The position numbers and the translations under genes were made by a program. Source: a virus. Taken from it: a stretch of 64,000 nt of DNA. Of the stretch, positions 50,490 to 64,000 are shown in pieces. The first letter of the stretch is position 1. Each line of letters starts with the position of its first letter. The notes under the pieces were generated by a model, which was not told the origin of the DNA, made no database searches, and saw nothing but the letters and a program-made list of their open reading frames with translations. The stretch lies in IMG/VR virus record IMGVR_UViG_2822571654_000002; one strand, given 5' to 3'.

Positions 50490-50679
50490 AGTTGCACATA
50501 AAAAGCCTCTTATTTGAGGCTTTTTTGTTTGTTAAGAAATATTAATACAAAAAGGTTTCCATTTAGAATTACCTCACATGCCTATTACCCCAAAAAATTC
50601 TCCACTTGAGGTGACATCCATAAAACGTGGATTTGAATCCTATTTCTCAATAACTGCTTTACATCAGTGATAAAATAAT

Positions 50680-50718
50680 ATGGTTCAAGTCGTAGAAAGG
50701 CACCTTAAGGTGTCTTTT
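50680..50718 (+). repeat. Cassette-boundary repeat copy 1
   Basis: ATGGTTCAAGTCGTAGAAAGGCACCTTAAGGTGTCTTTT. Confidence 0.9.
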
Positions 50719-50827
50719 CTTGACATATCCATAAAGATTACACAAATTAAATAAAATTCATGTTACATAAAGATAATGGTATCATGTATATCATTAAAAT
50801 CTTTGTTAATAATATACATGATACTTT

Positions 50828-54013: not shown

Positions 54014-55075
54014 TTGAAGAAAATATTTATTAGTCATTCAACTAAAGACGGAGATTTAGCAATAAAACTTATGGATATGCTACAAAGTCAGTTTAATTTA
54101 ACAAGAGATAATTTCTTTCTCACCTCAGACGAACAGTTAACGATAGGAGGAAATTGGATCGAAGAAATTCGAGAAGCAATGTACAATGCAAGTATTGTAC
54201 TTCCTATAATTACACCAAACTTTTTAGAAAGTAAATTCTGTATATGTGAGTTAGGAGCAGCTTGGGTTAATCAACACGCGTTAGTACCCGTAATTATTCC
54301 ACCTTTAGATTATAATGCATTGGCAGATACACCTTATCGTTCATGGGTACAATCAATTATATTAAAGAGCGAAGATGATTTAGGAAGAATTGCACAAGCA
54401 ATGTCTGATAGAGATCTAGGGAAAGTTAGTATACCTCGTTTTATTACACGAGCAAGAACGTTCTATAACGAAACGGTAATTCCCTTTACTTCTACGATGA
54501 AACAAAAAGAGGTTATAACACCCGAGCTAGTAAAAACATTAAGGGAACAGCTGAATTCATATAAGGGAGCATATAACGAAGTTGAAAAAGAATTAGAACA
54601 AATTAAAGAAGAAAATAAAGCGCTTAGACGTATGAAAAATGCTGAACAAGTTAGGGAACTAGATTTTGCAAAAATGGGGGAATGGGACACATTCATGAAT
54701 GCAGTTGATAACCTGAAAGAAAAATTAAGAAGGTTGCCTAGTCTTGTACCAAGTATCTTGTATAACAATTTTAAAAAATCAAGAGGGAATGGATTGGGTT
54801 TCGTTGGAGCGATGGAGGACAATGCTTCATTAGAGAAGCTACAAAATGAGGGTTACATCGTACTTGATGATGAAGGATGGGAACCTAATTTTGAACATTC
54901 ATTTATAAATAATGCTAGTGAAGCTTTATACGAATTAGAACAAGTTATGAAAGCTAATAAAGATATAATTGAAGAAAAGTTTGAACATGAATACGGTGAT
55001 ATCCTTATGGGGCTTAAATATTCACCATTTTGGGAAGAGGTTCTTGGAGAATCCATAACACATTCGGAGCGTTAA
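54014..55075 (+). CDS. TIR domain plus coiled-coil protein
   Basis: IFISHSTKD...SKFCICELGAAW (catalytic Glu position intact); central coiled coil. Confidence 0.88.
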   Translation: MKKIFISHSTKDGDLAIKLMDMLQSQFNLTRDNFFLTSDEQLTIGGNWIEEIREAMYNASIVLPIITPNFLESKFCICELGAAWVNQHALVPVIIPPLDYNALADTPYRSWVQSIILKSEDDLGRIAQAMSDRDLGKVSIPRFITRARTFYNETVIPFTSTMKQKEVITPELVKTLREQLNSYKGAYNEVEKELEQIKEENKALRRMKNAEQVRELDFAKMGEWDTFMNAVDNLKEKLRRLPSLVPSILYNNFKKSRGNGLGFVGAMEDNASLEKLQNEGYIVLDDEGWEPNFEHSFINNASEALYELEQVMKANKDIIEEKFEHEYGDILMGLKYSPFWEEVLGESITHSER

Positions 55076-55847: not shown

Positions 55848-55920
55848 TTAATAGCGATGATCCAGACAGACGATTGAAAGCTCCGATTGCAGTACTAGAA
55901 TTAAACAACAAATAAAGACA

Positions 55921-55958
55921 GTTCCAATTAGAGAAAGACACCTTAGGGTGTCTTTTTT
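55921..55958 (+). repeat. Cassette-boundary repeat copy 2 (degenerate)
   Basis: GTTCCAATTAGAGAAAGACACCTTAGGGTGTCTTTTTT, ungapped alignment to consensus. Confidence 0.75.
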
Positions 55959-56017
55959 TAGTGGACAAACCAATATAAATTGTATTATAAAAATAATAGG
56001 ATAAAAAAGAAAGGTAA

Positions 56018-56312: not shown

Positions 56313-56546
56313 ATGGATTTTCAAGTAAATATACCAAGCCCCTTCCAAGCAATTCCTGAGAGTGCAGTGATTATCTTTTTGATTTTGATCTTGTTAGGTG
56401 CAGCACTATTAATTTTCTCAAATTGGATACAAGGTGTAATTCCTTATCGGACTAGACAATATATTAAAATTGGTTTTATGATACTGACACTTGTATTTAT
56501 CATACTAGCAATTAAAAAACCTGAATATATTACAGCTTTATTTTAA
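56313..56546 (+). CDS. Small two-TM membrane protein
   Basis: AAGGA SD; hydrophobic helices. Confidence 0.65.
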   Translation: MDFQVNIPSPFQAIPESAVIIFLILILLGAALLIFSNWIQGVIPYRTRQYIKIGFMILTLVFIILAIKKPEYITALF

Positions 56547-56772
56547 AAGTAGTTATGAGGATATTCTTTCCTTAATTAAATTAAGGCTTTAAGGTTATAT
56601 AAAAAGAGTAGCAAAATTAAAATACTACTCTTTAAAAATCCATATAATAGGGGTGTCATTGATGAAAGGGAATAATTTAAATTAGACTAATATGTTTCAA
56701 TAATCGTTCCATATGTTAATAAAGTTTCTTTCATCCTTAGTCTAGATAGCCTCTCGAAATATTAAGTCACAT

Positions 56773-57930
56773 TTACTTAATAACTTCATTAAGCCATTCG
56801 GATTTGATTTGGTCACCTTGAACCAACCGTAACTCTTTAAACAAAAAAACTAAATCTGCCCCTGAAAATAGCTTTACAGGATATCCATCCTGATATACTT
56901 CCTTCTGAGCCTGTTTTGTATAATATGAAGTTGTAACAAAGATACCATATTGTCCACGAGATAAACGTGCCACTAAGCGTGATAAATGCCTTGGCCCAAC
57001 TCCACTTTTCCTGCCAAACTTTTTTGCTTCTCCCAGAAAACTTATATCATAGGACAAGGGATATGGTAAGCTAAAATGTCCTATAAAATCGAATCCCCCA
57101 TCTTTAGTCGGCCTTGTTTGCGTAATAGAGTGAGTTACATCTTTTAACTGTCGAAATAAAGCTACCGTTACTGCTTCAAATTGTATTGGAGATAGCGAAA
57201 CTAACTGTTCCAATATTTTAGCATCTGGACTTCCTTCTTTGGGTAATTGACTATCTAGAGTTCTTATTTTATTTTTCCATACATGTAATTTGTTTATTTT
57301 ACCATTTTTGTATTCTCTCCATGAAGAAGGTGCATCCTTATCTATAAAGTTGATCTCCTCAAAATCATTTGCTCTTGCTCGATTATGTAACCAAGTAATA
57401 TCTACTTCTTCAACATCAAGTATTGATAGGTGACATCTATAATTTTTTATTGGTAAACCACTTTTATTATCTACAAACCAAGTAAGTTCAAGTTTATCTA
57501 ATATACAAAGTCCATTAAACCTAACAATTCCCTTCCTTGTTTTTGAAAAATGTAGTATTGGGGGGACATGCTTAAAATTACCATCTAATATTAAATGATT
57601 GATAACTTCAAGCGTTTGATTTCCTTCAAAGTCATCATATCTCTTTTCATAATTGAATTTTGCATCACCCCAATATAAAATTTCTCCCTCAGATAAATCT
57701 ACAATATCATGCCAGGGATTACTTTCCCCCGAGTTTGTATCACTTGTCACCAATATTAGATATGCAGGTGCATCACTAAATCGTGATACATATTTTAAAG
57801 GGCGAATCCCTGGCGAATTTCTCATACCACTGTTCTTTATGTTTATCCAACGTGAAAACTGGTCTTCTTCATTACTGCTTGAAGCTTTATCTATATATTC
57901 ATGTCCTAACCTATATAAGTTTCCCAACAT
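56773..57930 (-). CDS. AspBHI/MspJI-like modification-dependent restriction endonuclease (SRA-like plus Mrr_cat)
   Basis: N-terminal GIR...NPWHD...ILYWGDAK...PILHF SRA-like domain; C-terminal FEAVT...DGGFDFIG...GEAK...GIFVTTSYYT Mrr catalytic domain. Confidence 0.85.
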   Translation of the reverse strand: MLGNLYRLGHEYIDKASSSNEEDQFSRWINIKNSGMRNSPGIRPLKYVSRFSDAPAYLILVTSDTNSGESNPWHDIVDLSEGEILYWGDAKFNYEKRYDDFEGNQTLEVINHLILDGNFKHVPPILHFSKTRKGIVRFNGLCILDKLELTWFVDNKSGLPIKNYRCHLSILDVEEVDITWLHNRARANDFEEINFIDKDAPSSWREYKNGKINKLHVWKNKIRTLDSQLPKEGSPDAKILEQLVSLSPIQFEAVTVALFRQLKDVTHSITQTRPTKDGGFDFIGHFSLPYPLSYDISFLGEAKKFGRKSGVGPRHLSRLVARLSRGQYGIFVTTSYYTKQAQKEVYQDGYPVKLFSGADLVFLFKELRLVQGDQIKSEWLNEVIK

Positions 57931-58329
57931 AATTGCCCCCATTGACGAGTTATTCTTTTTATAAGACTATCTTTATTAAAAAAACAAGATTAAAAACTCC
58001 TTATATTTTAACAGGAAAATCACACCATAATAATATTGTTTTTTTCAAATATAAAAAGTAAAGCATCTTTTAAATACTAACCTCATAAAAACTGTATACC
58101 GCGTACCTACAATCCCCCACCGCAGCGATACGAATTTAAGAACCGATTTCTTCCCCCAAAACGATAAGAATGAACTTCGGTGTTATTAAAGCACCAAAGT
58201 TCCGTTTAGGTGTACTTTAAAATTTTAGCTTGATAGGTATTTCTATACCCCACTAACAATCCAAACCAGATAGATATAATAATTACTTGATTTTCGCAAG
58301 GTTATATAATTAATTTAAATTTAAATAAA

Positions 58330-58383
58330 AAAACAAAACCCTATAAATCTACAATAAACGTTGATTTAATAGGGTTTTGTTTT
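58330..58383. repeat. 15-bp inverted repeat
   Basis: AAAACAAAACCCTAT (58330-58344) / ATAGGGTTTTGTTTT (58369-58383). Confidence 0.8.
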
Positions 58384-58580
58384 AAAAATAAAATCACCAA
58401 AAAAAATTACCCATTGCATTTAATATACCTACATTGTATACTGAATTCATCAAGTTGACACACAAAAAAACTTGTTTTTCACAATATACTTTCATCACAA
58501 AGTCTATAACATCAACATCTTTATACACTGCCATGTATGCGAGTTGGTGTTGCACACAAATATTAGGAGGTAACATTAAA

Positions 58581-59105
58581 ATGCAATTATATCAAAATGA
58601 AGAAATAAGAAGCAAGAAAATAGGACTTGTGCTACAACCATTAGGTCAACAAGGCAATGAAGAACTTACAATACTTAAAGCAGTTCATTTAGACGATATA
58701 GCCGTGGCTTTAACAGATGTACAATATACATATTTAGAAAAAATGTTCCCAAATAAGGAATTTCTAATTTGGGGAGTACACGATCGCGGAATTACAGCTA
58801 GTCGGTATAATCTAATTGAAAATTATTTTCACGTTCTTTTTTATAAGCAACGTAATTATTTTTTACGTGCAAAAATAGCCTGTAAGTTCCATAATCCAAA
58901 AGTAGCAAGCACTCTCTGGGAAAAAGATCAGGATGAAAAAGGTCGCAATTTTAACAACTTATATTTTTGCCCTGTTGAATCATTAGAGAATATCAACCTA
59001 TCTGTATTTGAAGTGAATGAAGTATTAGAATCAAAGCAAGATAGATTATATGGTATGAAAGTTTGTGTTGATGAAGAAGCAACGGCTTTATTGAAATTAC
59101 TATAA
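58581..59105 (+). CDS. Stand-alone PUA/EVE-like domain, paralogue of the middle domain of the next gene
   Basis: GGAGG SD; LVLQP, FP..IWGV, VLFY, K.H.PK...LW, F..LYF and NLSV motifs shared with 59182..60453. Confidence 0.7.
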   Translation: MQLYQNEEIRSKKIGLVLQPLGQQGNEELTILKAVHLDDIAVALTDVQYTYLEKMFPNKEFLIWGVHDRGITASRYNLIENYFHVLFYKQRNYFLRAKIACKFHNPKVASTLWEKDQDEKGRNFNNLYFCPVESLENINLSVFEVNEVLESKQDRLYGMKVCVDEEATALLKLL

Positions 59106-59181
59106 ATATACAAAATCGTGACCAAGGACTTAATTCTCTGGTCACGATTTTATACTAGAAGTACTAAAAGGAGCAACTAAA

Positions 59182-60453
59182 ATGACAGAAATAATGACAG
59201 GCTTACGTTATTTAATGAATGTCAAAGGGCAAAAAAACAAAGATATTGCGAAGATTCTTGACATCTCTACCCAAGCAGTTTCACTATGGACAAAAAAAGG
59301 CACTATTCCCAAGAAACATTTAGAAAGACTCGCAAATCACTATAAAGTATCCCAAGAATATTTAGTAAATCCACTTACTGCTGATACAATTAGTGTCATT
59401 GAAAAAGATGCAACGCCAATGATGCAAATTGGCCATAATGGACTTAACATGTATGGAGATTTTAATGTTGTGCTGCAGCCAACTAGTGATAAAATAGCGC
59501 GTACAAATTATGAGAATACAGTTCGTAAACTGCGAAATATTGAGGGATTTTCTGAGTATGTGAAAATAAACGAGCTAACTGATTTACATACGATCTTTCC
59601 AGAAGGACAATGCGCCGTTTGGGGTGTAAAGTCGGGTACCAATGACACAACAAAAAAGCAATACGATAAACTAACTCTCGGTGATTTCGTACTATTTTAT
59701 CAAGATAAACATTTTTATAACCGTGCAATTGTAGCATATAAAATACATTCACCTAAACTAAGTGAATATTTATGGGGAACCTCTATTTTTGAGCACATAT
59801 ACTTTCTACAGGATGTTCAACCATATAACTTATCCGTTATACGATTTAATGAAATTGTATATGGAAAATTAGAAGATTTCCCAGTAATGGCATTCCGCGT
59901 TTTAAACCGTGAACAAAGTTTACAGATTATTGATGCATTTGATATTGAAGCTGATTATTCTCCAACTACATTAACTGACAGAAAACAATCTCGTGAAGAT
60001 ATTTTGAAAGCACTGTTAAATTTAGAAAATAATAAAGAACTTGACCGTGATACAAAACGAAAATATCGCATTGAACAAAGTTTATTACGTGAATTTTTAT
60101 TTAATGGAAAAGAAGAAGTTACATGTGCCTGCTGCCAAACAAAACTTTCACCAGAATTTTTTGCAACAGCTCATATTAAAAAACGCTCGCACTGTTCAAC
60201 AGAAGAAAAACTAGATGTTAACGTTGTAATGCCTCTTTGCTACTTAGGATGCGACATGTTATTTGAAAAAGGTCTACTTGTCGTCAATTCACATGGCCAT
60301 TTCCAACGTACTGATGTAATAAATAAAAAGATTCCCTATGAGGGACGTTTAGGCACATTGCTTGCAAAGTATGACCAAAAACCTTGTTCTTATTGGAACA
60401 AAGAAACAGCCCAATATTATCAGTGGCATTACAAACACCATATAATGAAATAA
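59182..60453 (+). CDS. XRE-HTH plus PUA/EVE-like domain plus HNH nuclease
   Basis: N-terminal KNKDIAKILDISTQAVSLW HTH; C-terminal CACC...AHIKKRSHC...LCYLGCDMLFEKG HNH. Confidence 0.82.
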   Translation: MTEIMTGLRYLMNVKGQKNKDIAKILDISTQAVSLWTKKGTIPKKHLERLANHYKVSQEYLVNPLTADTISVIEKDATPMMQIGHNGLNMYGDFNVVLQPTSDKIARTNYENTVRKLRNIEGFSEYVKINELTDLHTIFPEGQCAVWGVKSGTNDTTKKQYDKLTLGDFVLFYQDKHFYNRAIVAYKIHSPKLSEYLWGTSIFEHIYFLQDVQPYNLSVIRFNEIVYGKLEDFPVMAFRVLNREQSLQIIDAFDIEADYSPTTLTDRKQSREDILKALLNLENNKELDRDTKRKYRIEQSLLREFLFNGKEEVTCACCQTKLSPEFFATAHIKKRSHCSTEEKLDVNVVMPLCYLGCDMLFEKGLLVVNSHGHFQRTDVINKKIPYEGRLGTLLAKYDQKPCSYWNKETAQYYQWHYKHHIMK

Positions 60454-60589
60454 AAAAGCTACAATAAGTCTTTGTATAACAATGAAGCCAAATCATGCAA
60501 TAAGCATTAGCGGACATTAAAAATAATAAAAAACAGAATAATTGAAGCGATAAAATAATATTTGGATTGACATCCGATACCATATTATG

Positions 60590-60630
60590 ATGGTTCAAGT
60601 CGCAGGAAGGCACCTTAGGGTGTCCTTTTT
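60590..60630 (+). repeat. Cassette-boundary repeat copy 3
   Basis: ATGGTTCAAGTCGCAGGAAGGCACCTTAGGGTGTCCTTTTT. Confidence 0.9.
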
Positions 60631-60714
60631 TCTTTATTCCTAAATCTATATTTTAACGTGCAATTCCCTTATTCTTATATAAAGGATAAATTAAAATAAG
60701 GAGGATATTTATAC

Positions 60715-61062: not shown

Positions 61063-61071
61063 TTAATATTT

Positions 61072-61108
61072 AATCCAGTCGGAGGAAGACATCTTAGGAT
61101 GGCTTTTT
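61072..61108 (+). repeat. Cassette-boundary repeat copy 4 (degenerate)
   Basis: AATCCAGTCGGAGGAAGACATCTTAGGATGGCTTTTT. Confidence 0.75.
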
Positions 61109-61173
61109 TAAAATAAAAAATGCCCTACATTTTACGTAGGGCACTTTTATATTTTATATGATAGAGTTATATT

Positions 61174-63135: not shown

Positions 63136-63280
63136 GCTAAATCTTCCTCCTTTGGAAATATATTAAATAAAATAGAAATTCATGTTATATAATGTCATAT
63201 TTTCATATAAATTTCTATATATTTCTATAAAATTAAAAGATGTTATTATAATTTGAAAAATGATATTATTTAAGATTAAG

Positions 63281-63321
63281 ATGATTCAGGTCGGAGGAGG
63301 GCACCTTAGAGTGTCTTTTTT
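63281..63321 (+). repeat. Cassette-boundary repeat copy 5
   Basis: ATGATTCAGGTCGGAGGAGGGCACCTTAGAGTGTCTTTTTT. Confidence 0.9.
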
Positions 63322-63433
63322 ATTTTCAAAAGGACCTGCTCATTTAATCCATAAAAACATAAAGTAATTTGAATCCATTAAAATACATGAGTGACTCCTT
63401 ATTTTTCTCCTACTATTTAAAGGAGGAATTATT

Positions 63434-63535: not shown

Positions 63536-63974
63536 AAAACTATCGGAAAAGGCACTCTTATATGGGTGTCTTTTCTTTATTTCTCAATATAAGAACTTTA
63601 AGGATATGCTATTATTTAAATACAAATTCCCTTTTGTGCACTGAGATAGTAATATCCAATAAAAAAGCCCACCTATTTCCGTAGGTGGGCCTTGTCTTTA
63701 TTACACAATATCAAAGTATACTCTCTTTTTCTCATAAACTTTATGTAATTATACATATTTGCGAAAATTACACTAAATAAATATTACATGTAGTAAAATA
63801 TAAACCGTGGACACGTTCTATAAAGCAGATTCTTTTGAAAGACGTAACATATTGATCTCAAATCTCTTGTATTTTGTGAACTAACAATCTGATGTATATA
63901 GACGATTCTGTTTTATAGGATGGGTTTATACGTATAACAAAGGGATAATACGGATAAGTTTATACTAAATGAAC

Positions 63975-64000
63975 ATGGTTCAAGTCGGAGGAAGGCACCT
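63975..64000 (+). repeat. Cassette-boundary repeat copy 6 (cut by window end)
   Basis: ATGGTTCAAGTCGGAGGAAGGCACCT. Confidence 0.9.

What the first reader, a model, noticed from the sequence alone, without database searches (positions are those of the whole stretch)
58581..60453. Duplicated reader domain: stand-alone PUA/EVE-like protein plus HTH-reader-HNH nuclease
Seen: the 174-aa ORF aligns by eye along its length with the middle of the next protein (LVLQP/VVLQP; MFPNKEFLIWGV/IFPEGQCAVWGV; HVLFYKQ/FVLFYQD; KFHNPKVASTLW/KIHSPKLSEYLW; FNNLYF/FEHIYF; NLSVFEVNEVL/NLSVIRFNEIV), yet is highly diverged. The partner adds an N-terminal XRE HTH and a C-terminal HNH. Known: PUA-superfamily readers (EVE, SRA, YTH) fused to HNH form modification-dependent restriction enzymes. 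Inference: a two-component system in which a nuclease-free paralogue broadens specificity, forms a heteromer, or acts as decoy or antitoxin. I know no described system with this layout.
Basis: partly seen in the sequence, partly recalled or inferred. Interest (0 to 1): 0.72.

Follow-up and report, generated by a model that had tools for sequence, protein, structure and literature searches.

The report
Reader paralogue beside modified-DNA nuclease
A Bacillus cereus-group phage-plasmid carries a two-gene operon: a nuclease predicted to cut DNA with modified bases, preceded by a separate, nuclease-free copy of that enzyme's own base-reading domain. I found this pairing in no paper I read; its role is untested.

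Summary
The 174-aa ORF (58581-59105) is a true paralogue of residues 81-229 of the 423-aa ORF (59182-60453): BLASTP 27% identity, E 5e-14. A profile built only from nuclease-borne domains scores it 88 bits, against 13.5 bits for the best of 500 shuffles.

- **Fold.** Both fold as PUA-superfamily readers. The closest solved structure is the YTH-like N-terminal domain of T. gammatolerans McrB (Z 12.9), then the EVE domain of VcaM4I.
- **Large protein.** It is XRE-HTH + reader + HNH. Its HNH is sequence-homologous to that of VcaM4I (E 6e-11) and keeps the catalytic residues. It is therefore a predicted type IV, modification-dependent nuclease, in the defence cargo of a phage-plasmid.
- **Pairing.** The small-then-large order held in all nine intact loci sets of one B. 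cereus-group clade that I examined. It is absent from related HTH-reader-HNH genes and from 80 other reader-HNH loci.
- **Small gene.** It is under purifying selection (dN/dS 0.2-0.4), evolves about three times faster than its partner, and is mosaic.
- **Intergenic hairpin.** A covarying terminator-like hairpin separates the two genes.

My best guess is a trans-acting competitor or threshold setter made in excess; this is unproven. I rate it a new variant of a known kind.

The parts
58414..58442 (+). Candidate sigma-A promoter of the operon: TTGCAT, 17-nt spacer, TG-n-TATACT
   Evidence: Read from the sequence. The block lies in an upstream region conserved between loci that sit in different genomic contexts. 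No experimental support.
58443..58580 (+). Conserved leader of about 130 nt with a short AACTTG/CAAGTT palindrome and an AGGAGG ribosome-binding site
   Evidence: Alignment of six loci; the AACTT core is invariant. A role as operator for the HTH is speculation: the inverted-repeat scan across relatives was inconclusive.
58581..59105 (+). Stand-alone PUA-superfamily (YTH/EVE-like) reader, 174 aa, paralogue of the nuclease's reader domain
   Evidence: BLASTP E 5e-14 to the large protein. AF2 pLDDT 86.8. VIA Z 12.9, rmsd 2.9 A over 146 residues, to 6p0g; Z 10.9 to the VcaM4I EVE domain. Keeps all ten family-invariant residues: Q19 P20 T30 W64 G65 F87 L112 W113 Y128 N146. dN/dS 0.18-0.40.
59113..59150 (+). 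Intergenic hairpin followed by a T-rich tail (terminator- or attenuator-like) between the two genes
   Evidence: RNA fold -20.6 kcal/mol, z -7.1. Present in seven loci; 5 of 14 pairs show compensatory double changes, G-U intermediates occur, and a T run follows in each.
59182..59385 (+). N-terminal XRE/Cro-type helix-turn-helix domain of the large protein (residues about 1-68)
   Evidence: Weak hits to Pfam HTH_17, Phage_CI_repr, HTH_26 and HTH_3. HTH_3 reaches 7e-9 in relatives. Five-helix model with pLDDT above 90. Foldseek hit to the XRE regulator 3op9.
59455..59946 (+). Reader domain of the large protein (residues about 92-255), PUA-superfamily
   Evidence: pLDDT 90-97. Foldseek hits 6p0g at 3e-6 and full-length VcaM4I at 1e-8. 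The family profile finds 2465 cluster representatives, mostly reader-HNH proteins of about 320 aa.
60067..60453 (+). Linker helix plus HNH (HNH_2-type, beta-beta-alpha-Me) nuclease domain with a Cys4 zinc site (residues about 296-423)
   Evidence: Profile against the PDB: VcaM4I HNH at E 6.4e-11. H331, N347, D358 and E362 align with VcaM4I H224, N241, D250 and D254. Invariant C315, C318, C353, C357, H331-IKKR, E342-K-L-D345, D358 and E362.
60584..60635 (+). Terminator-bearing repeat element that closes the operon and the cassette
   Evidence: Terminator-like site at 60609-60624 followed by a T run. It is one copy of a repeat family of five to six copies in 50.6-64 kb.

Best explanation
This is a self-contained two-gene operon in the defence cargo of a Bacillus cereus-group phage-plasmid.

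Gene 2 encodes a type IV (modification-dependent) restriction nuclease of the PUA-reader-HNH kind, with an added N-terminal XRE helix-turn-helix. By analogy with VcaM4I, its reader domain would flip a modified base into a conserved aromatic pocket and license the HNH domain to cut. All of this is inferred from homology and fold.

It keeps every family-invariant residue and is under purifying selection.

A conserved terminator-like hairpin lies between the genes. Transcripts from the upstream promoter should therefore yield more small reader than nuclease (inferred).

The mechanism I think most likely is this. The free reader acts in trans on the same class of modified DNA as a competitor or buffer. 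It would occupy sparse modified sites and so set a density threshold, or a self-protection margin, for the nuclease. It would not act as a stably bound subunit. The modified base recognised (5mC, 5hmC, 6mA, 5hmU or another) cannot be told from the sequence.
For: - **Homology and fold.**
- **Active-looking nuclease.** The family profile hits the VcaM4I HNH at 6.4e-11. The four residues shown by mutagenesis to matter in VcaM4I (H224, N241, D250, D254; PMC7897488) are matched by H331, N347, D358 and E362, with H331, D358 and E362 invariant in 22 relatives.
- **No methyltransferase nearby.** None among the ORFs scanned between 43 and 63 kb, nor in 20-kb annotated stretches of two plasmids carrying the same block. 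Neighbours are TIR, Abi_2, DUF4062, a ResIII helicase and an AspBHI-like 5mC-dependent enzyme.
- **Conserved pair.** Nine sets of loci in at least four contexts keep the order small then large, with a 62-76 nt spacer. The two genes show equal dS (1.2-1.7), so they were inherited together.
- **Functional small gene.** dN/dS is 0.18-0.40 over saturated dS.
- **Origin of the small gene.** The small clade (support 100) is nested in the HTH-bearing clade (97*) on a long stem.
- **Hairpin.**
- **Argument against a bound subunit.** VcaM4I dimerises only through its HNH domains (PMC7897488), which the small protein lacks.
Against: - No experiment and no complex prediction bears on the role of the small protein.
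- HTH-reader-HNH relatives in Priestia, Sporosarcina and B. cereus SB1, and about 80 reader-HNH loci across phyla, work without such a partner. It is therefore not needed for the basic enzyme.
- A competitor would be expected to track the nuclease's specificity. Yet the small protein is only 27% identical to its partner's reader, has deletions in two loops beside the conserved motifs, replaces the family-invariant Asp of the GD motif by Phe, and evolves three times faster. Mosaic, recombined segments fit a diversifying sensor or decoy at least as well.
- The hairpin's T tail is interrupted in the window's own copy, and its termination efficiency is unknown.
- The reader domain matches no Pfam EVE or YTH model.
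Confidence: 0.4

Rival explanations
1. The small protein is a second sensor. It recognises a different modification or sequence context from the nuclease's own reader, and it recruits or activates the nuclease, for example by relieving linker-helix auto-inhibition. This would broaden the range of phages restricted.
For: The small protein differs from its partner's reader in the loops flanking the conserved WGV and LW motifs. Its central segment is exchanged between alleles by recombination: 52-72% nucleotide identity inside flanks of 95-100%. That is what one expects of a specificity module. The pocket-candidate residues are all retained. VcaM4I is auto-inhibited by its linker helix (PMC7897488), so an activating partner is conceivable.
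Against: There is no evidence of contact. The only oligomer interface known in the closest solved enzyme is HNH-HNH (PMC7897488). Relatives work without a partner. The hairpin predicts an excess of small protein rather than a stoichiometric amount.
Confidence: 0.25
2. The small protein is functionally independent of the nuclease. It would be a stand-alone binder of modified bases or nucleotides, for example in nucleotide-pool or DNA surveillance, or a regulator, and it sits next to the nuclease only because of its origin by duplication.
For: Genuine stand-alone members of the family exist elsewhere, with stop codons inside their contigs. In two unrelated metagenomic contigs they abut a MazG-like (PF12643) nucleotide pyrophosphohydrolase. 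An orthologue of that gene (46-58% identity) lies 0.6 kb upstream of the pair in one B. toyonensis lineage. An HTH-reader protein without HNH appears among the AlphaFold DB matches.
Against: The strict order, orientation and short spacer are kept through dS above 1 and across at least four genomic contexts, with a shared conserved leader and no room for a separate promoter for gene 2. No intact large gene of this clade was seen without the small gene.
Confidence: 0.17
3. The small protein is a decoy. It mimics the nuclease's reader so as to absorb phage-encoded inhibitors of type IV restriction.
For: Non-synonymous change is three times faster than in the partner, and the gene is mosaic, as in arms-race genes. 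Expression in excess is predicted.
Against: A decoy should resemble its model, but identity is only 27% and surface loops differ. Pairwise dN/dS never approaches 1. No inhibitor that targets PUA readers is known to me.
Confidence: 0.1
4. The small ORF is a decaying remnant of a partial tandem duplication and has no function.
For: It consists of a single domain copied from the neighbouring gene and evolves faster than that gene.
Against: Its length is fixed at 172-174 aa in eight cluster representatives. It has a strong ribosome-binding site. dN/dS is 0.18-0.40 at saturated dS. All ten invariant family residues are kept.
Confidence: 0.03

Closest known systems
VcaM4I / TspA15I group of EVE-HNH modification-dependent restriction endonucleases (PDB 6yex; PMC7897488, PMC6765204)
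   Same: One polypeptide with a PUA-superfamily reader, a helical linker and an HNH. The HNH domains are sequence-homologous (profile E 6.4e-11) with equivalent catalytic residues. The whole-protein Foldseek top hit is VcaM4I at E 1e-8. No methyltransferase is nearby.
   Different: The fold is closer to the YTH-like TgMcrB domain. The HNH carries a Cys4 zinc site that VcaM4I lacks at the aligned positions. There is an extra N-terminal XRE HTH.
N-terminal YTH-like domain of Thermococcus gammatolerans McrB (PDB 6p0g/6p0f)
   Same: It is the best structural match of both readers: VIA Z 12.9, rmsd 2.9 A, 146 residues, 22% identity for the small protein; Foldseek 3e-6 for the large one. It is a modified-base sensor of a type IV system.
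   Different: It is fused to an AAA+ GTPase motor, not to an HNH. It is archaeal. No sequence-level match was found.
ScoA3V (Sco5330) group: distant-PUA-HNH nicking enzyme stimulated by 6mA (PMC6765204)
   Same: A PUA-like reader that does not cluster with the TspA15I group, fused to an HNH. That group is reported from Streptomyces and Nocardiopsis, genera in which the present reader-HNH family is abundant.
   Different: Membership could not be tested, because no sequence of Sco5330 was available to the tools. The resemblance is a lead only.
Stand-alone EVE/ASCH proteins associated with restriction systems, and (PIN)-GNAT-EVE operons with a second PUA-like domain, some as XRE-HTH-ASCH (PMC7641849)
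   Same: A nuclease-free PUA-superfamily reader encoded beside a restriction or toxin module; XRE HTH fused to a PUA-like domain.
   Different: In those systems the two PUA-like domains belong to different families and the effector carries no reader of its own family.
McrB-s, the short McrB isoform that modulates McrBC (my own recollection; not checked here)
   Same: A truncated relative of a type IV restriction component that tunes the activity of the full enzyme.
   Different: McrB-s lacks the DNA-binding domain and is made from the same gene. Here the small protein is only the DNA-reading domain, and it is a separate, diverged gene.

Membership tests
PUA superfamily modified-base readers (EVE / YTH-like) | PUA-like beta-barrel fold with flanking helices | tested here: met
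   Small protein: Z 12.9 to 6p0g, 11.6 to PH1033, 10.9 to the VcaM4I EVE domain, 10.6 to YTHDC1. Large protein: Foldseek hits to 6p0g, YTH and ASCH entries.
PUA superfamily modified-base readers (EVE / YTH-like) | Match to the curated sequence models of EVE or YTH | tested here: not met
The family profile reaches the YTH domain of Mmi1 only at E 0.13.
PUA superfamily modified-base readers (EVE / YTH-like) | Conserved aromatic or hydrophobic pocket for a flipped base | tested here: inconclusive
   W64, W113, Y128, Q19 and P20 are invariant in both paralogues and in 16 nuclease-borne domains. They recall W22, W82, Y130 and Q10 of VcaM4I (PMC7897488). No residue-level superposition could be made.
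PUA superfamily modified-base readers (EVE / YTH-like) | Binding of modified DNA or RNA | not testable with these tools
   Needs binding assays.
PUA-HNH type IV modification-dependent restriction endonucleases (VcaM4I/TspA15I kind) | Reader and HNH in one polypeptide joined by a helical linker | tested here: met
Foldseek aligns it to full-length VcaM4I over 361 columns.
PUA-HNH type IV modification-dependent restriction endonucleases (VcaM4I/TspA15I kind) | HNH with general-base His, structural Asn and acidic metal ligands | tested here: met
   H331, N347, D358 and E362 align with H224, N241, D250 and D254. H331, D358 and E362 are invariant in 22 sequences; the Asn column varies (N, K, Q, S).
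PUA-HNH type IV modification-dependent restriction endonucleases (VcaM4I/TspA15I kind) | Reader clusters by sequence with the TspA15I-group EVE domains | tested here: not met
In the A1 search the N-terminal stretch scores only 3.7 bits. The protein works like this group but is not a member of its reader clade.
PUA-HNH type IV modification-dependent restriction endonucleases (VcaM4I/TspA15I kind) | No cognate methyltransferase next to the gene | tested here: met
   No methyltransferase family among the ORFs scanned at 43-63 kb, and none annotated in 20 kb around the block on two plasmids.
PUA-HNH type IV modification-dependent restriction endonucleases (VcaM4I/TspA15I kind) | Cleavage that depends on base modification | not testable with these tools
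   Needs enzymology or phage assays.
ScoA3V (Sco5330) group | Sequence similarity of reader and HNH to NP_629471.1 | not tested
   No tool gave that sequence, the paper has no held supplement, and S. coelicolor A3(2) was not named among 120 listed Streptomyces relatives.
Toxin-antitoxin-like or controller-regulated restriction operon | The upstream small product neutralises or limits the downstream nuclease | not testable with these tools
   Only indirect support: gene order, the conserved attenuator-like hairpin and the HTH on the nuclease.

The most novel reading that the evidence does not exclude
A nuclease-free paralogue of a type IV enzyme's own reader domain, made in excess from the same operon, acts as a competitive 'immunity reader'. 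It would set the density of modified bases needed for cleavage, or shield the carrier's own sparse modifications. That would be a way of controlling modification-dependent restriction without a methyltransferase, one that I did not find described.
Probability: 0.3. Interest if true: 0.7.

Novelty: new variant of a known kind. Interest (0 to 1): 0.52.

Why it matters
How type IV restriction enzymes avoid harming the cell is poorly understood. They must tolerate occasional modified bases in the host's own DNA, or recycled modified nucleotides. A dedicated, co-transcribed free reader would be a simple and testable solution.

The pair also offers two diverged readers on one scaffold for studying how specificity for modified bases evolves.

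The underlying reader-HNH family is large: 2465 cluster representatives, and 194 loci among GTDB species genomes spread over several phyla. It matches no Pfam model for its reader, so annotating it is useful in itself.

Tried and rejected
- **Expression.** No RNA holder was listed for the locus.
- **Whole-genome searches.** The genome search 'own' and 'genus' failed: the assembly is not held and the window is treated as a virus record.
- **Related loci.** The search for related loci failed with A2 and A1 because no stretch was conserved enough. It worked with the smaller alignment A3.
None beyond a marginal match to the YTH domain of Mmi1 (E 0.13). phmmer of the large protein against the PDB gave nothing meaningful.
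- **Phage genomes.** tblastn of the small protein and of a stand-alone relative found only an archaeal provirus with a reader-AAA fusion.
- **Hairpin as HTH operator.** I considered this and dropped it. G-U intermediates and a following T run point to an RNA structure.
- **Shared operator palindrome.** A search upstream of relatives was inconclusive.
- **Net charge and pI.** These do not separate the small protein from nuclease-borne readers.
- **ScoA3V membership.** It could not be settled.
- **Longer start.** The TTG at 58434 (223 aa) is rejected. Homologues begin MQLYQN, the upstream frame is closed in other loci, and the ribosome-binding site serves the ATG at 58581.
Full report
**Observation**

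- Each has a good Shine-Dalgarno sequence: AGGAGG before the first ATG and AAGGAG before the second.
- BLASTP aligns the whole small protein to residues 81-229 of the large one: 27% identity, 48% positives, E 5e-14.
- As a control free of circularity, I built a profile only from reader domains carried by nucleases. It scores the small protein 88.1 bits, while the best of 500 shuffles reaches 13.5 bits.
- The duplication is therefore real.

**What the domains are**

No Pfam, NCBIfam or PADLOC model covers the shared domain. AlphaFold2 models built with family alignments are confident there:
- small protein, mean pLDDT 86.8 and pTM 0.83;
- large protein, pLDDT 90-97 over residues 92-255.

The small model's best solved match is the YTH-like N-terminal domain of Thermococcus gammatolerans McrB (6p0g: Z 12.9, rmsd 2.9 A over 146 residues, 22% identity). 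Next come PH1033, the EVE domain of VcaM4I (Z 10.9), YTH domains and ASCH. The full-length large model's top Foldseek hit is the EVE-HNH restriction enzyme VcaM4I (E 1e-8), then 6p0g. AlphaFold DB cluster matches are EVE-annotated proteins, HNH nucleases and a putative restriction endonuclease. Both proteins thus carry a PUA-superfamily reader fold.

Ten residues are invariant across the seven small proteins and sixteen nuclease-borne domains: Q19, P20, T30, W64, G65, F87, L112, W113, Y128 and N146 in small-protein numbering. The two Trp, the Tyr and the Gln recall the residues that sandwich and read the flipped base in VcaM4I (PMC7897488). I could not superpose coordinates, so this assignment is inference.

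**The nuclease**

A profile of the large-protein family hits the HNH domain of VcaM4I at E 6.4e-11. In that alignment H331, N347, D358 and E362 fall on VcaM4I H224, N241, D250 and D254. Those are the residues assigned as the HNH moniker and shown by mutagenesis to matter (PMC7897488). H331, D358 and E362 are invariant in 22 relatives, as are C315, C318, C353 and C357. I read those four Cys as a Cys4 zinc site; VcaM4I has no Cys at three of the four aligned positions. HNH_2 (PF13391) matches 8 of the 22 relatives.

The first ~65 residues are an XRE/Cro-type HTH: weak Pfam hits in this protein, HTH_3 at 7e-9 in relatives, and a Foldseek hit to a Listeria XRE regulator. The large protein is therefore HTH-reader-HNH with an apparently intact active site. 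I predict it is a type IV, modification-dependent nuclease. Which modification it reads cannot be inferred: the closest structural neighbours are described in the papers as sensing 6mA (TgMcrB) and 5mC/5hmC (VcaM4I) (PMC7897488, PMC7641849).

**Context**

The window is a B. cereus-group phage-plasmid.
- The same 87.6-kb B. toyonensis plasmid carries both the phage head and terminase genes and this block.
- An AimR gene lies at 43.4-44.6 kb.
- From 45 to 61 kb the ORFs are defence-like: a ResIII helicase, DUF4062, Abi_2, a TIR protein (54014-55075) and an AspBHI-like 5mC-dependent endonuclease (56773-57942, minus strand).
- No DNA methyltransferase family was found among the scanned ORFs, nor in 20-kb annotated stretches of two plasmids.

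**Distribution and co-occurrence**

The profile finds 2465 cluster representatives (331 below 1e-30), most of them reader-HNH proteins of about 320 aa without an HTH. A scan of GTDB species genomes found 194 loci in Bacillota, Bacteroidota, Actinomycetota, Pseudomonadota and other phyla.

The small protein is rare. A word-based search found six clusters, all from the B. cereus group. The exhaustive search added two more 174-aa representatives.

Wherever context was available, the small gene directly precedes a gene of 423-449 aa of the same clade as the window's large gene. These loci are the window, L004, L005, L006-8, L009/10, L011/12, L095, L096 and L102. They represent at least four different neighbourhoods:
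- an AspBHI-like gene upstream (window type);
- a MazG-like gene upstream (L006-8, L102);
- a resolvase upstream with MutH-like, AspBHI_N-HNH_2 and DndB genes downstream (L009/10);
- an integrase upstream (L096).

The only member of the clade seen without the small gene is a decayed fragment, truncated at the N-terminus and frameshifted in the HNH. It lies beside a C5 methyltransferase and McrBC genes.

Other relatives have no second reader within 4-6 kb:
- HTH-reader-HNH genes in Priestia, Sporosarcina and B. cereus SB1;
- 76 of the 80 GTDB loci. The other four carry a second reader domain that is not a small co-oriented stand-alone gene: in two it sits in a longer ORF on the opposite strand, and in two it is partial or cut off by the end of the locus.

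The pairing is thus a lineage-specific addition. It is strictly kept where it exists and is not a general feature of the family.

**Origin and selection**

In a maximum-likelihood tree of 94 reader domains, the small clade (SH-aLRT 100) lies inside the well-supported group (97*) that holds the HTH-bearing nucleases. It sits on a long stem of 1.1 changes per site. The most basal small protein still has the family's GD motif, which the others have changed to Phe.

Across lineages the two genes have the same synonymous divergence (dS about 1.2-1.7), so they travelled together. Their non-synonymous rates differ:
- small gene: dN 0.22-0.36, dN/dS 0.18-0.40;
- large gene: dN 0.08-0.13, dN/dS 0.06-0.10.

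The small gene is also mosaic.
- Against locus L011, its codons 37-97 drop to 52-72% nucleotide identity (dS 0.96), while flanks and the large gene stay at 95-100%.
- Against L004, a different segment (codons 98-137) is the divergent one.

This points to exchange of segments between alleles, not to point-mutation positive selection: dN/dS stays below 0.5.

**Operon design**

About 250 nt upstream of the small gene are conserved between loci in different contexts. This stretch includes a plausible promoter (TTGCAT-17-TGnTATACT at 58414-58442) and a short AACTTG/CAAGTT palindrome in the leader.

Between the genes lies a hairpin (59113-59150; -20.6 kcal/mol, z -7.1), followed by a T-rich tail and then the second gene's ribosome-binding site. 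Seven loci keep it. Five of its 14 pairs show compensatory double changes, G-U intermediates occur, and a T run follows in each locus, uninterrupted in some. I read it as an intrinsic terminator or attenuator. There is no convincing promoter between it and the second gene, so the nuclease would be expressed by read-through and at a lower level than the small reader. This is inference; no RNA data were available.

**Mechanism**

What is shown:
- homology of the two domains, and their fold;
- intact catalytic motifs in the HNH;
- conserved pairing in one clade;
- purifying selection on the small gene;
- a conserved intergenic hairpin.

What is inferred:
- The small protein binds the same class of ligand in trans.

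VcaM4I dimerises only through its HNH domains (PMC7897488), and the small protein lacks both linker and HNH. I therefore favour a free competitor or buffer made in excess over a bound subunit.

I hold this loosely (about 0.4). The small protein's divergence, altered loops and mosaicism fit a second sensor (0.25) or a decoy (0.1) nearly as well. True stand-alone relatives next to MazG-like pyrophosphohydrolases keep an independent function open (0.17).

**Comparison and novelty**

The following are already described:
- PUA-HNH type IV enzymes (PMC6765204, PMC7897488);
- stand-alone EVE proteins beside restriction systems (PMC7641849);
- operons with two PUA-like domains of different families (PMC7641849);
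- XRE-HTH-ASCH fusions (PMC7641849).

In the papers I searched and read, I found no description of a stand-alone paralogue of the nuclease's own reader, co-transcribed upstream of it. That search was limited.

It might coincide with the ScoA3V (Sco5330) group, whose enzyme showed 6mA-stimulated nicking, but I could not test this.

**Verdict**

The feature is real. It is a new variant of a known kind and of moderate interest; the interest rests on a role for the small protein that remains to be tested.

Noticed in passing
window 50674-50725, 55912-55963, 60584-60635, 61063-61114, 63275-63326, 63962-64000: A repeat of about 45-52 nt ending in a GC-rich hairpin plus a T run (GGCACCTTAGGGTGTC-TTTTTT) recurs five to six times and brackets groups of cargo genes. 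The block of AspBHI-like gene, small reader and nuclease lies between the copies at 55912 and 60584. Roughly that block (56500-60645) is what two plasmids with otherwise different flanks share.
   Followed up: partly
There is none in the window. This may link modified-nucleotide pool cleaning with modified-DNA reading.
   Followed up: partly
L093:5001-5744 and L094:1126-1869: A decayed copy of the large gene (247 aa; no HTH, frameshifted HNH, no small gene upstream) sits next to an HTH_26 gene, a C5 DNA methyltransferase and McrBC genes in B. toyonensis. That would fit loss of a modification-dependent nuclease where a methyltransferase arrived.
   Followed up: no
window 56773-57942 (-): An AspBHI-like type IV endonuclease (RE_AspBHI_N + Mrr_cat; PADLOC mREase_II 6e-51) is divergently oriented from the pair. 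A different AspBHI_N-HNH_2 gene lies near the pair in L009/L010, with MutH-like and DndB genes. Enzymes directed at modified DNA cluster repeatedly around this module.
   Followed up: partly
window 54014-55075 (+): A TIR_2 protein with a long coiled-coil C-terminus (PADLOC SpbK-like 1.7e-14), one of several defence-like genes between 45 and 56 kb (ResIII helicase, DUF4062, Abi_2).
   Followed up: no
In a Streptomyces locus a 596-aa ORF carries a second reader domain about 1.7 kb away. Pairs of reader-bearing effectors thus occur, but not as stand-alone readers.
   Followed up: no
window 58456-58479 and the aligned positions in L006, L009, L096: A short AACTTG/CAAGTT palindrome in the conserved leader upstream of the small gene could be an operator for the nuclease's XRE HTH. 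The evidence is thin.
   Followed up: partly
L003:738-4352: In a Sporosarcina-type chromosome, a 541-aa EVE (PF01878)-HNH protein and an AAA_21 ATPase lie directly upstream of the HTH-reader-HNH homologue. Two modified-DNA nucleases with readers of different families sit side by side.
   Followed up: no
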